Source of the DNA: Selaginella moellendorffii
Lineage: Eukaryota > Plantae > Lycopodiophyta
DNA: 64,000 bases
NCBI RefSeq assembly: GCF_000143415.4
Contig: NW_003314417.1
Span: 151,219 to 215,218, forward strand
Direction: 5' to 3'
Positions 16,201 through 18,006 of the stretch are shown here, piece by piece. A model generated the notes under the pieces. It saw only the letters and a program-made list of their open reading frames with translations. It ran no database searches and was not told the DNA's origin. Numbering within the stretch: the stretch's first letter is position 1; every line of letters begins with the position of its first letter. Made by a program: the position numbers and the translations under genes.

Positions 16201-18006
16201 AGACACTTCAAGGTTTACACGGACAATGTGGCAACGAAACACTTCTTGTCACAACCCGACCTGAGAGGGAAACAAGGTCGGTGGGCCAATGCCTTGGCCG
16301 AGTTTGATTGCGAGATCCTGTACAAGCCTGGGAAGAGCAACATCGTGGCAGATGCGCTAAGTCGAAAAGCGAGCTTGAGGTTGGCGATCTCCAGCGCAAC
16401 AGCAACCTTCTGGGACGATGTGCGGACAGCATATGAGAACGATGGTCTAGCACAAGAAGTGTTGTTGAGGAATCTGGAGGCACGGGAAGCTCACCAGAGA
16501 GGTGAGCCGCCAACGGAAGAGAAAACGGGCTATGCGGAACGCAATGGACTCATTTATTACAAGCAAACGAGGGTGTATGTTCCAGAAGGTGGACTAAGGA
16601 AGGTAGCCTTAGAAGAGTGTCATGACGGACCTCTTGCGGGACACGGCGGAGTGCCCAAGACGATGGGCTTACTCAAGAGGAAGTACCATTGGCCAGATAT
16701 GGCTAAGGACGTCCAAGACTATGTAAAGACATGTCCAACATGTCAGCAGGTCAAAGCCGTGACTAAGGCTAGTGGGGGCTTGTTGCAAAGCATCCCCATT
16801 CCAGATCGTCCGTGGAAATGTCTCACGATGGACTTCATCACGGGACTACCCCCAAGCGAGGGGTTCGATGCGATATTCGTGGTGGTGGACCGATTTTCGA
16901 AGATGGCACATTTCATACCCACCACAACGGAGGTGGATGCGGAAGGTGTGGCGAAACTGTTCTTCGAACAAGTGGTTCGAGTGCGGGGAAGGCCAGAGGA
17001 GATTATCTCAGACCGAGATAAGATCTTCACTAGTAGGTTCTGGAGGACCCTCCTGGAACAGTATCGCACCAAGTTGAAATTCAGCACAGCCTATCACCCA
17101 CAGACAGGTATGGGGTATTAAGTCAAGTTTGGTGGTCCTAACACTTCTTGACAGACGGACAAACGGAAAGGGTGAATAGGCAGCTGGAGGATTATTTGCG
17201 ATGCTATGTCTCGGGAGACCAGACCGATTGGGTAAGTCATTTGGGACTTGCGGAAATGTGTTATAACAACTCACCACATTCGAGTATCGGGGTGAGTCCA
17301 TGGGAAGTCATCAATGGGCGAGCTATTGAAGGTCCTGTGGAACTCGGCGTGGCCGAGTATCATGGAGAGTTACCCGCAGTGGAGGCATTCACGGCGGAAA
17401 GACTCAACATTTGGAATCTAGTGAGGGATTCCTTGGAACGGGCTCAACAAAGGCAAACCAAGTACGCGAACCTAAAGCGCCGGGACGTAGAGTTCCAAGC
17501 TGGGGAGAAGGTGTGGCTGAACACCAAGAACCTTAGGCTACCAAGTGGGATCAGCCGAAAGTTGACCCAAAGGTAAAAATGCATGTATTCCTGTAAATGA
17601 ATTGATCTTGAGTTCCTTAAGCAGGTTCGCGGGGCCTTACGAGATTGAGGCACGAATCGGTAAAGTGGCTTACCGACTCCGACTTCCTCGAGAGATGGGG
17701 AAGATGCACCCAGTGTTCCATGTGAACTTACTCAAGCCGTACTTTGAGGATCCGCTTCGCAAAGACCAAGTAAGACCTTTACCTGAGGTTATCCAAGGGG
17801 AAGAGGAATACGAAGTCGAGGCCATCCTCAATGCGCGCAAGAGCAAGCGACAAGGACGCGAGGTGAGAGAGTTCCATGTGAAGTGGAAAGGATTCCCACA
17901 CTGCGAAGCAACATGGGAACCGGAGGAGAACCTAGCGAACGCGCAAGATCTAGTGGAGGAATTTCTGCAAGGCAGAACTCTATGTACTTATGCAAAGTTC
18001 AATTAA
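13234..18006 (+). CDS. Gag-Pol polyprotein (gag, CCHC, protease, RT, RNaseH, integrase, chromodomain); exons 13234-17107, 17155-17572, 17625-18006; ~1557 aa after splicing
   Basis: [46 protein letters not shown] integrase zinc finger; splicing restores [12 protein letters not shown] and [12 protein letters not shown]; chromodomain EYEVEAIL...[19 protein letters not shown]. Confidence 0.93.
17108..17154 (+). other. GT-AG intron 1 in integrase (47 bp)
   Basis: gtatgg...cctaac...ttgacag; removal restores QTDGQTER in frame; also present in copy C (39145-39191). Confidence 0.88.
17573..17624 (+). other. GT-AG intron 2 in integrase (52 bp)
   Basis: gtaaaa...ttaagcag; removal restores the RFAGPY (GPY/F) motif; also present in copy C. 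Confidence 0.88.

What the first reader, a model, noticed from the sequence alone, without database searches (positions are those of the whole stretch)
17101..17640. Two spliceosomal introns inside the integrase of an active chromovirus
GT-AG introns of 47 and 52 bp break integrase just before the catalytic Glu (HPQT^DGQTER) and at the GPY/F motif (TQR^FAGPY). Both are present in the young element A and the older copy C, so they survive reverse transcription. The packaged genomic RNA must therefore be unspliced, encoding Gag-PR-RT-RH with a dead integrase, while functional integrase and chromodomain need double splicing. This implies a splicing switch that controls integrase dose and separates mRNA from genomic RNA (inference). 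Introns are known in some plant LTR elements (e.g. Ogre, between protease and RT), but I do not know of introns within integrase.
Basis: partly seen in the sequence, partly recalled or inferred. Interest (0 to 1): 0.82.

Follow-up and report, generated by a model that had tools for sequence, protein, structure and literature searches.

The report
Introns split a retrotransposon's integrase gene
A young, high-copy jumping gene, likely from a spikemoss, has its integrase gene cut by two tiny introns that are spliced out of its RNA, and a further intron removes the site where DNA copying starts, which likely explains why spliced RNA is not copied back and the introns survive.

Summary
Confirmed and extended. 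The GT..AG inserts (17108-17154, 47 nt; 17573-17624, 52 nt) are real introns. One transcriptome-type contig skips both. Contigs from two more studies skip intron 2, and one raw RNA read skips intron 1. Removing them restores D-35-E spacing and a 1,557-aa Gag-Pol with chromodomain. The element matches the published figures for SM1-Galahad of Selaginella moellendorffii, whose describers saw three ORFs, found no 'intact' copy and do not mention introns. One (13135-13200) removes the LTR end and the tRNA primer-binding site. The other (14434-14590) removes the protease active site and leaves a 401-aa Gag, as in Copia shGAG. Best model (0.55): spliced mRNAs lose the primer site and cannot be reverse transcribed, so only unspliced RNA becomes new DNA and the introns persist. 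The Gag:Pol ratio is likely set mainly by the protease intron. Not shown: splicing linkage on single molecules, the packaged RNA, or full absence of rare intron-less copies. Ten literature searches found no intron inside an LTR-retrotransposon integrase. New variant of a known kind (Ogre, EVD, BARE, foamy virus).

The parts
12022..12026 (.). 5-nt target-site duplication (left copy; right copy 19559-19563)
12027..13174 (+). 5' LTR of element A, 1,148 nt, TG..CA, G11 tract at 12440
   Evidence: 2 differences from the 3' LTR
13135..13200 (+). Intron 0 (66 nt, GT..AG): donor inside the LTR, acceptor just after the PBS; removes the LTR's last 40 nt and the whole PBS
   Evidence: skipped in one X15 contig; retained in an X18 contig; donor GT kept in all 5 LTR copies examined, acceptor AG changed to AA in decayed copy C
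13178..13189 (+). Primer-binding site of tRNA-Met type, inside intron 0
   Evidence: tRNA-Met PBS reported for SM1-Galahad
13234..17121 (+). ORF1 from first ATG, 1,295 aa: Gag, CCHC knuckle, protease, RT, RNase H, integrase zinc finger and first two catalytic Asp; stops inside retained intron 1
14434..14590 (+). Intron G (157 nt, GT..AG, alternative, inside coding sequence): removes the protease DTG (14557); a stop follows one codon later, giving a 401-aa Gag
   Evidence: skipped in one X15 contig; frame computed; an X18 contig begins at its acceptor (hint only)
17108..17154 (+). Intron 1 (47 nt) in the integrase core, 11 nt before the catalytic Glu codon (17166-17168)
   Evidence: skipped in an X15 contig and 1 raw read of X22; retained in X18 and X20 contigs
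17155..17572 (+). Exon: catalytic Glu and C-terminal part of the integrase core
   Evidence: dN/dS 0.22 against copy C
17573..17624 (+). Intron 2 (52 nt, 33% GC) just before the GPY/F motif
   Evidence: skipped in X15, X17 and X20 contigs
17625..18006 (+). Exon: GPY/F-SH3 and chromodomain, stop at 18004
   Evidence: Pfam PF24626 and PF00385; dN/dS 0.22
18397..18409 (+). Polypurine-tract-like stretch
   Evidence: sequence
18411..19558 (+). 3' LTR of element A
38678..43227 (-). Copy C, 5' part (decayed, 91-92% identical): intron 1 at 39145-39191, intron 2 begins at 38726
24418..26379 (-). Copy C, 3' part: end of intron 2, chromodomain exon, 3' LTR
26380..38677 (.). 12.3-kb insertion with inverted ends that splits intron 2 of copy C at a duplicated TTAA (not part of the element)

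Best explanation
This retrotransposon has four GT-AG introns that are removed in its RNA, two inside integrase, one over the primer-binding site and one over the protease site, and it likely uses splicing to sort transcripts: spliced mRNAs that have lost the primer site would make protein but could not be copied, while only unspliced RNA would be copied into new DNA. Shown: each intron is skipped in sequencing data; introns 1 and 2 are skipped on one contig; retained forms of introns 0 and 1 also occur; retention of intron 1 stops integrase before its catalytic Glu; removal of intron G leaves Gag alone. Inferred: (a) a Gag-Pol mRNA that keeps intron G and loses introns 1 and 2 supplies integrase; (b) removal of intron 0 goes together with removal of introns 1 and 2 on the same molecules; (c) RNA without the PBS is not primed; (d) with that gate in place, introns gained in a DNA copy of pol are not purged, so introns 1 and 2 may be tolerated passengers, with Gag:Pol dose set mainly by intron G.
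For: Four of four joints listed on 12480-18405 are GT..AG skips at these introns. Intron 2 is skipped in contigs of 3 studies (X15, X17, X20) and intron 1 in X15 plus one sense-strand raw read of RNA run X22. DNA run X1 lays 87,730 contigs across the element; none of the four skips is among its 15 best-supported of 149 joints. Within 13234-18003 the listed family indels are a net-zero pair (13496/13498) and two 1-nt deletions, one in each integrase intron (17130, 17575); chance about 4e-4 given 99 intron nt against 4,671 coding nt. Exons 2+3 are under purifying selection between two intron-bearing copies (dN/dS 0.22 each, Fisher p about 2e-5 combined). The published family consensus has the same three-ORF layout and no 'intact' copy was found. 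The PBS (13178-13189) lies between a branch-like CTTAC (13169) and the acceptor (13200) of intron 0.
Against: Intron 0 and intron G skips each rest on one contig of one run (X15), which the tool only guesses to be RNA, and no silent-stretch control was laid. They lie on different contigs from introns 1 and 2, so linkage is not shown. Partial splicing exists: an X20 contig keeps intron 1 and skips intron 2 (a host-chimeric, damaged copy). The X15 contigs together fit a Gag-only RNA; no single record shows intron G kept with introns 1 and 2 removed. 134 DNA joints were not shown and some were not counted, so rare intron-less copies are not excluded. Raw RNA runs show the internal region almost silent (64, 23 and 38 reads laid of 9.2 million each, mostly on the LTR). 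The intron 0 acceptor is mutated in copy C (a decayed copy). The region shows no unusual RNA fold (z 0.30).
Confidence: 0.55

Rival explanations
1. Two RNA pools set at transcription, as in BARE: the genome comes from a separate start site and escapes splicing altogether, while the translated pool is spliced and is uncopyable for another reason (for example a missing R repeat); intron 0 is then a side feature.
For: BARE precedent (PMC3735527, abstract and Discussion part 1). The spliced X15 contig ends at 13023, after two short upstream ORFs (13004, 13012), while the unspliced X18 contig reaches 12500.
Against: Contigs cannot show starts; the X18 contig may be DNA or read-through. No start site was found in raw reads (table 6 empty). 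Intron 0 removes the PBS directly and needs no further assumption.
Confidence: 0.2
2. The introns hold a cis signal needed by the genomic RNA (packaging, export, strand transfer). Intron-less copies arise but are dead ends.
For: Intron 2 is identical in 52 of 52 nt between A and C, while nearby synonymous divergence is 0.08-0.14 (P about 0.004 at a 10% rate).
Against: Intron 2 is AT-rich and most A/C changes are C>T or G>A, so fewer changes are expected. dS falls towards the 3' end, which suggests mosaic ancestry. Intron 1 has 7 changes in 47 nt and both introns tolerate 1-nt deletions. No intron-less dead copies were seen among the DNA joints shown.
Confidence: 0.12
3. The intron-bearing family is non-autonomous: the inserts disable integrase, splicing is incidental, and integrase comes in trans from a rare intron-less master or from SM2-Galahad.
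For: An intron-less sister family with one 1,577-aa ORF exists in the same species. Hidden DNA joints leave room for a rare master.
Against: Purifying selection and frame conservation in exons 2 and 3 of intron-bearing copies; exact frame-restoring splicing seen in 4 runs of 4 studies; open exons in the young copy A.
Confidence: 0.06
4. The skips come from a processed (retroposed) intron-less DNA copy present in runs that are really DNA or that transcribe such a copy.
For: X15, X17, X18 and X20 are only guessed to be RNA; the X15 contig differs from A at 82 of 2,500 letters, so it is another locus.
Against: These runs lay 2-16 contigs where the DNA run lays 87,730. The X20 locus keeps intron 1 but skips intron 2. 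A recorded RNA run has a junction read. A processed copy would itself require prior splicing.
Confidence: 0.05

Closest known systems
SM1-Galahad, Galadriel-related chromovirus of Selaginella moellendorffii (Novikov et al. 2012, PMC3350952; section 2.1 read whole, other passages, supplement searched)
   Same: 7.5 kb (7,532 here), LTR 1,146 (1,148), poly-G tract, tRNA-Met PBS, ORF of 1,295 aa / 3,885 bp (identical figures), ORF3 of 309 bp with chromodomain (309), ORF2 316 bp (318)
   Different: The paper treats the pieces as separate short ORFs and reports no intact copy; 'intron' and 'splic' occur 0 times in its text. Here the pieces are exons of one spliced gene.
Ogre (Ty3/gypsy, Tat) (passages in PMC6317226 and PMC12786077; primary papers not read)
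   Same: An intron kept through retrotransposition must be spliced to translate the full polyprotein
   Different: Ogre has one intron between Gag-protease and RT, a domain boundary. Here two 47-52 nt introns cut the integrase itself, one 11 nt before the catalytic Glu codon.
EVD / Ty1-copia shGAG (PMC5580714, passages) and BARE1 (PMC3735527, abstract and Discussion part 1)
   Same: An alternative intron over the protease domain gives a stop and a Gag-only mRNA; BARE keeps separate pools for translation and copying
   Different: This is a Ty3/gypsy element; the EVD paper found no conserved splicing of this kind in Arabidopsis Gypsy. In EVD the unspliced RNA encodes complete Gag-Pol; here it cannot encode integrase. 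BARE separates pools by start site.
Foamy virus major splice donor and spliced pol mRNA (PMC5035957, passages)
   Same: Donor inside the LTR upstream of the PBS; enzymes come from a spliced mRNA
   Different: Foamy Pol is a separate protein whose mRNA skips gag. Here a 66-nt intron removes only the LTR end and PBS, and Pol stays fused to Gag. That spliced foamy RNAs lack the PBS is my inference from the stated positions.
Penelope-like elements that retain introns (PMC8557442, passages); Cer1 spliced accessory mRNA (PMC3315495, passages)
   Same: Retroelements that keep spliceosomal introns
   Different: Penelope-like elements are non-LTR type with 5'UTR introns; Cer1 splicing makes an accessory protein while Gag-Pol comes from unspliced RNA

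Membership tests
SM1-Galahad | About 7.5 kb, LTRs over 1 kb with TG..CA and a G11-25 tract, tRNA-Met PBS | tested here: met
   7,532 nt; LTR 1,148; G11; PBS 13178
SM1-Galahad | ORF of 1,295 aa without chromodomain plus ORFs of 316 and 309 bp | tested here: met
   1,295 aa; 318 and 309 nt from first Met; ORF2 differs by 2 nt from the printed figure
SM1-Galahad | Over 80% nucleotide identity to the published consensus | not testable with these tools
   consensus not in the text or the one supplement held
SM1-Galahad | Host is Selaginella moellendorffii | tested here: inconclusive
   a neighbouring gene remnant's only hit among 76 candidates is an S. moellendorffii protein at 80%; genus likely, species not proven
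Chromovirus (Ty3/gypsy) | Gag-PR-RT-RH-IN order with C-terminal chromodomain | tested here: met
   Pfam
Galadriel clade | Groups with Galadriel elements on an RT tree | not tested
   no clade-labelled references available; placement taken from PMC3350952; nearest full-length proteins are about 55% identical, about 1,540 aa
U2 spliceosomal intron | GT..AG ends, branch-like motif, pyrimidine-rich 3' end | tested here: met
   branch motif clear in intron 1 (CTAAC), weak in intron 2
U2 spliceosomal intron | Removed precisely in RNA | tested here: met
   three of the four supporting runs are RNA by guess, one read is from a recorded RNA run
U2 spliceosomal intron | Joined form absent from DNA | tested here: inconclusive
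   not among 15 of 149 DNA joints shown; rest hidden
Copia shGAG strategy | Splice over protease creates a stop after Gag | tested here: met
Copia shGAG strategy | Spliced RNA ends early at an internal poly(A) site | not testable with these tools
   contigs cannot show ends; raw depth too low
Copia shGAG strategy | Ty1/copia domain order | tested here: not met
   Ty3/gypsy order: works like it, not a member
Ogre-type splicing | Intron between Gag-protease and RT ORFs | tested here: not met
   Gag to RT-RH is one open frame
Foamy-virus-type splicing | Splice donor in the LTR upstream of the PBS | tested here: met
   donor 13135, LTR end 13174, PBS 13178; R/U5 boundary not mapped
Foamy-virus-type splicing | Pol made as a separate protein from an mRNA that skips gag | tested here: not met
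   no such joint listed; gag and pol are one frame

The most novel reading that the evidence does not exclude
An autonomous LTR retrotransposon whose genomic RNA cannot encode integrase and whose mRNAs cannot be primed: one 66-nt intron over the primer site acts as an all-or-none gate between genome and message. That gate has let the element gain ordinary gene-like introns in pol (intron 1 possibly by tandem duplication) and a Copia-like Gag-only splice, and similar introns may hide in other 'broken' multi-ORF LTR families of short-intron genomes.
Probability: 0.5. Interest if true: 0.88.

Novelty: new variant of a known kind. Interest (0 to 1): 0.8.

Why it matters
Introns are expected to be lost whenever an RNA is reverse transcribed; this is the basis of retrotransposition reporter assays, and a 2025 review names only Ogre and EVADE as notable plant LTR exceptions (PMC12786077, passages). 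A family of hundreds of copies with two introns inside the integrase, plus an intron that deletes the primer site, offers a concrete and testable answer to how a retroelement separates the RNA it translates from the RNA it copies. It also corrects the published picture of SM1-Galahad (three ORFs, no intact copy): copy A appears intact once splicing is allowed. Annotation tools that demand one open frame would call such elements dead.

Tried and rejected
No genome is held for the window, so no direct census of copies was possible. The run search listed no holder on record as RNA. Metagenome search with exon 2 gave 34 distant loci (29-56% identity); where an HPQ[TS] motif lay at the match it ran on in frame, so they show no shared intron 1, and my site-2 pattern matched none of the 34, so they say nothing on intron 2. 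The protein search found no close family member (best full-length about 55%), so it cannot test for an intron-less master. A first regular-expression count for site 2 gave only 19 of 120 because the pattern was too strict; the alignment replaces it. Folding 13100-13260 gave nothing beyond chance. Tandem-duplication origin: intron 2 no support (p 0.85-0.89); intron 1 modest support against the preceding 47 nt (shuffle p 0.009; 10 of 4,531 element 47-mers and 3 of 79 CAG-ending ones score as well; one of four comparisons, noticed after looking). The p 0.0009 for the last 15 nt is a post-hoc window and is not used. In one search the joint table was filled by DNA joints, so RNA-contig splicing there is read from table 8 only. 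An X17 contig stopping at 17102 and an X18 contig starting at 14589 are hints, not counted. Passages of PMC2864245, PMC6839031, PMC12477816, PMC5718144 and PMC3488318 held nothing on introns in LTR integrases; PMC13192763 (passages) reports introns inside maize LTRs, with no PBS mention. The Selaginella genome paper was not held, so typical host intron size has no citation here. Look-ups of earlier findings by place and by sequence were empty.

Full report
Observation. Element A spans 12027-19558 (7,532 nt), with 1,148-nt LTRs that differ at 2 positions and a 5-nt target-site duplication. One open frame (13207-17121; first ATG 13234; 1,295 aa) carries Gag, a CCHC knuckle, protease, RT, RNase H and the first part of integrase, and stops after HPQT. 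Two further pieces, 17155-17572 and 17625-18006, carry the rest of the integrase core and the GPY/F-SH3 and chromodomain. With X at the two split codons, 35 residues lie between the second catalytic Asp and the Glu. Of 120 relatives, 115 aligned; all 107 that span site 1 and 83 of 98 that span site 2 align without a gap, with Asp at site 1 in 104 and Lys or Arg at site 2 in 93. The inserts are therefore gains in this lineage. A random 50-mer has GT..AG ends in 0.77% of trials. The three exons sum to 4,671 nt, or 1,557 aa.

The inserts are shared and the exons behind them are under selection. Copy C (minus strand, 43227-38678 and 26379-24418, 91-92% identical, decayed) has both; intron 1 differs at 7 of 47 positions and intron 2 at 0 of 52. 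dN/dS between A and C is 0.22 in exon 2 and 0.22 in exon 3 in the spliced frames, against 0.66-2.5 in the other frames; Fisher p is 6e-4, 0.015 and 2e-5 combined. Caveats: C has post-insertion stops (codons with stops were skipped: 9 in the exon 1 block, 4 in exon 3, one of them the natural stop), and dS falls from 0.27 to 0.08 towards the 3' end, so ancestry may be mosaic. In DNA run X1, 87,730 of 2,800,581 contigs lay on 12480-18405. Of 11 indel rows listed, four fall in 13234-18003: a net-zero pair at 13496/13498 and single-base deletions at 17130 and 17575, one in each intron. Both unpaired indels falling in 99 of 4,770 nt has a chance of about 4e-4. None of the intron skips is among the 15 best-supported of 149 DNA joints (depth 260-420); 134 were not shown and the tool says some were not counted, so rare intron-less copies remain possible.

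The inserts are spliced. Four runs were laid and four, of 24 listed. In X15 (contigs, RNA by guess) one 2,500-nt contig covers 15355-17953 and skips both introns. One raw read of RNA run X22 skips intron 1, on the sense strand if the library is of the usual stranded type. X17 and X20, from two other studies, each have a contig that skips intron 2; the X20 contig keeps intron 1 and continues into unrelated sequence upstream of 17074. X18 has contigs that keep intron 1 and the PBS region. No silent-stretch control was laid; as an internal check, the guessed-RNA runs lay 2-16 contigs where the DNA run lays 87,730. The three recorded RNA runs show little expression: 64, 23 and 38 reads of 9.2 million each (about 12% of each run), mostly on an LTR fragment.

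Two more introns. One search lists four joints, all GT..AG. Intron 0 (13135-13200, 66 nt) starts at AG|GTAAG inside the LTR and ends at a pyrimidine-rich CAG 11 nt after the PBS. It removes the last 40 nt of the LTR and the whole PBS (13178-13189), with a branch-like CTTAC at the LTR end. Its donor GT is kept in all five LTR copies examined; the acceptor is AA in decayed copy C. Intron G (14434-14590, 157 nt) starts after codon 400, removes the protease DTG at 14557 and is followed by one codon and a stop: a 401-aa Gag with its knuckle. Each of these two skips rests on one contig of X15. The three X15 contigs nearly abut (13023-14129, 14117-15353, 15355-17953) and would fit one fully spliced Gag RNA, but they do not prove one molecule.

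What it is. A neighbouring gene remnant's only hit is a Selaginella moellendorffii protein at 80%, and that remnant has a 43-nt intron-like stretch, so very short introns fit the host. The element matches the printed description of SM1-Galahad: 7.5 kb, LTR 1,146, poly-G, tRNA-Met PBS, 1,295-aa ORF, extra ORFs of 316 and 309 bp, hundreds of copies, no intact copy found (PMC3350952, section 2.1 read whole; here 7,532, 1,148, G11, 1,295 aa, 318 and 309). Sequence identity to their consensus could not be tested. Their consensus of many copies having the same breaks supports the inserts being family-wide. The paper never uses 'intron' or 'splic'. The sister family SM2-Galahad has one 1,577-aa ORF.

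How it likely works. Unspliced RNA has the PBS but cannot encode integrase (shown by sequence). RNA without intron 0 has no PBS (shown) and so should not be primed (established role of the PBS; passage in PMC12786077). If removal of intron 0 accompanies removal of introns 1 and 2 (inferred, untested), only intron-bearing RNA is copied and the introns persist. Integrase would come from an RNA that keeps intron G and loses 1 and 2 (inferred; not seen on one record), and Gag excess from removal of intron G. On this reading the integrase introns may be passengers protected by the gate, not a dose control. Intron 1 resembles the 47 nt just before it (both begin GTAT and end GACAG; shuffle p 0.009; 3 of 79 CAG-ending 47-mers do as well), a hint of origin by tandem duplication; intron 2 shows no such signal. 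Rivals: separate start sites as in BARE (0.2), a cis signal in the introns (0.12), trans-mobilisation by an intron-less helper (0.06), processed DNA copies (0.05). That the two inserts are spliceosomal introns I put at about 0.95.

Comparison with print. Ogre needs a splice between protease and RT (passages). EVD and other Copia elements splice over protease to make Gag, and no conserved equivalent was found in Arabidopsis Gypsy (passages). BARE keeps distinct RNA pools by start site (abstract and Discussion part 1). Foamy viruses have the major donor in the LTR R region and a spliced pol mRNA (passages). Cer1 splices to make an accessory protein (passages). Penelope-like elements retain introns (passages). 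Maize LTRs contain introns (passages). Ten full-text searches (listings only, except the papers named) gave no report of introns inside an LTR-retrotransposon integrase or of a retrotransposon intron that removes only the PBS; none of the 30 listed of 213 papers held the four PBS phrases. The library lacks most subscription papers, Repbase entries and preprint supplements, and the Selaginella genome paper was not held, so a prior note on these introns cannot be excluded. Earlier AI notes of this scan describe intron-like units across the LTR/PBS junction in other genomes without RNA support; they are leads only.

Verdict. Observation confirmed; interpretation partly supported and extended; new variant of a known kind; interest 0.8.

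Noticed in passing
window 26380-38677: 12.3-kb insertion with inverted ends and a duplicated TTAA inside intron 2 of copy C; one ORF (36421-37479) has a sub-threshold DUF7869 hit. Looks like an unclassified DNA transposon.
   Followed up: partly
window 12643-12999: In X22-X24, X15 and X17 a diverged LTR fragment is transcribed as part of another, probably host, transcript with the same loose ends in each run.
   Followed up: no
window 17074-17874: X20 has a contig (depth 59) in which an integrase fragment follows unrelated sequence, keeps intron 1 with a 1-nt deletion and skips intron 2: a chimeric transcript from a damaged copy.
   Followed up: partly
window 20411 and 63016: Two other LTR families have tRNA-Met PBS sites followed by pyrimidine-rich stretches and AG; whether they have an intron 0 equivalent is untested.
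   Followed up: no
window 19564-24417 and 43228-43650: Element D (43% protein identity to A) appears to jump from RNase H to the chromodomain without integrase; A sits in tandem 12-nt repeats next to it and C is nested in it.
   Followed up: partly
window 55405-56383 (-): Remnant of a DUF2358-family gene (best hit carries PF10184) with a 43-nt intron-like stretch that starts GA instead of GT and a partial tandem duplication of about 310 nt.
   Followed up: partly
window 12100-12390: LTRs of this and related families carry arrays of 12-nt tandem repeats.
   Followed up: no
window 17136-17137: Copy A has minority letters in intron 1; nearly all DNA depth shows the letters found in copy C.
   Followed up: no
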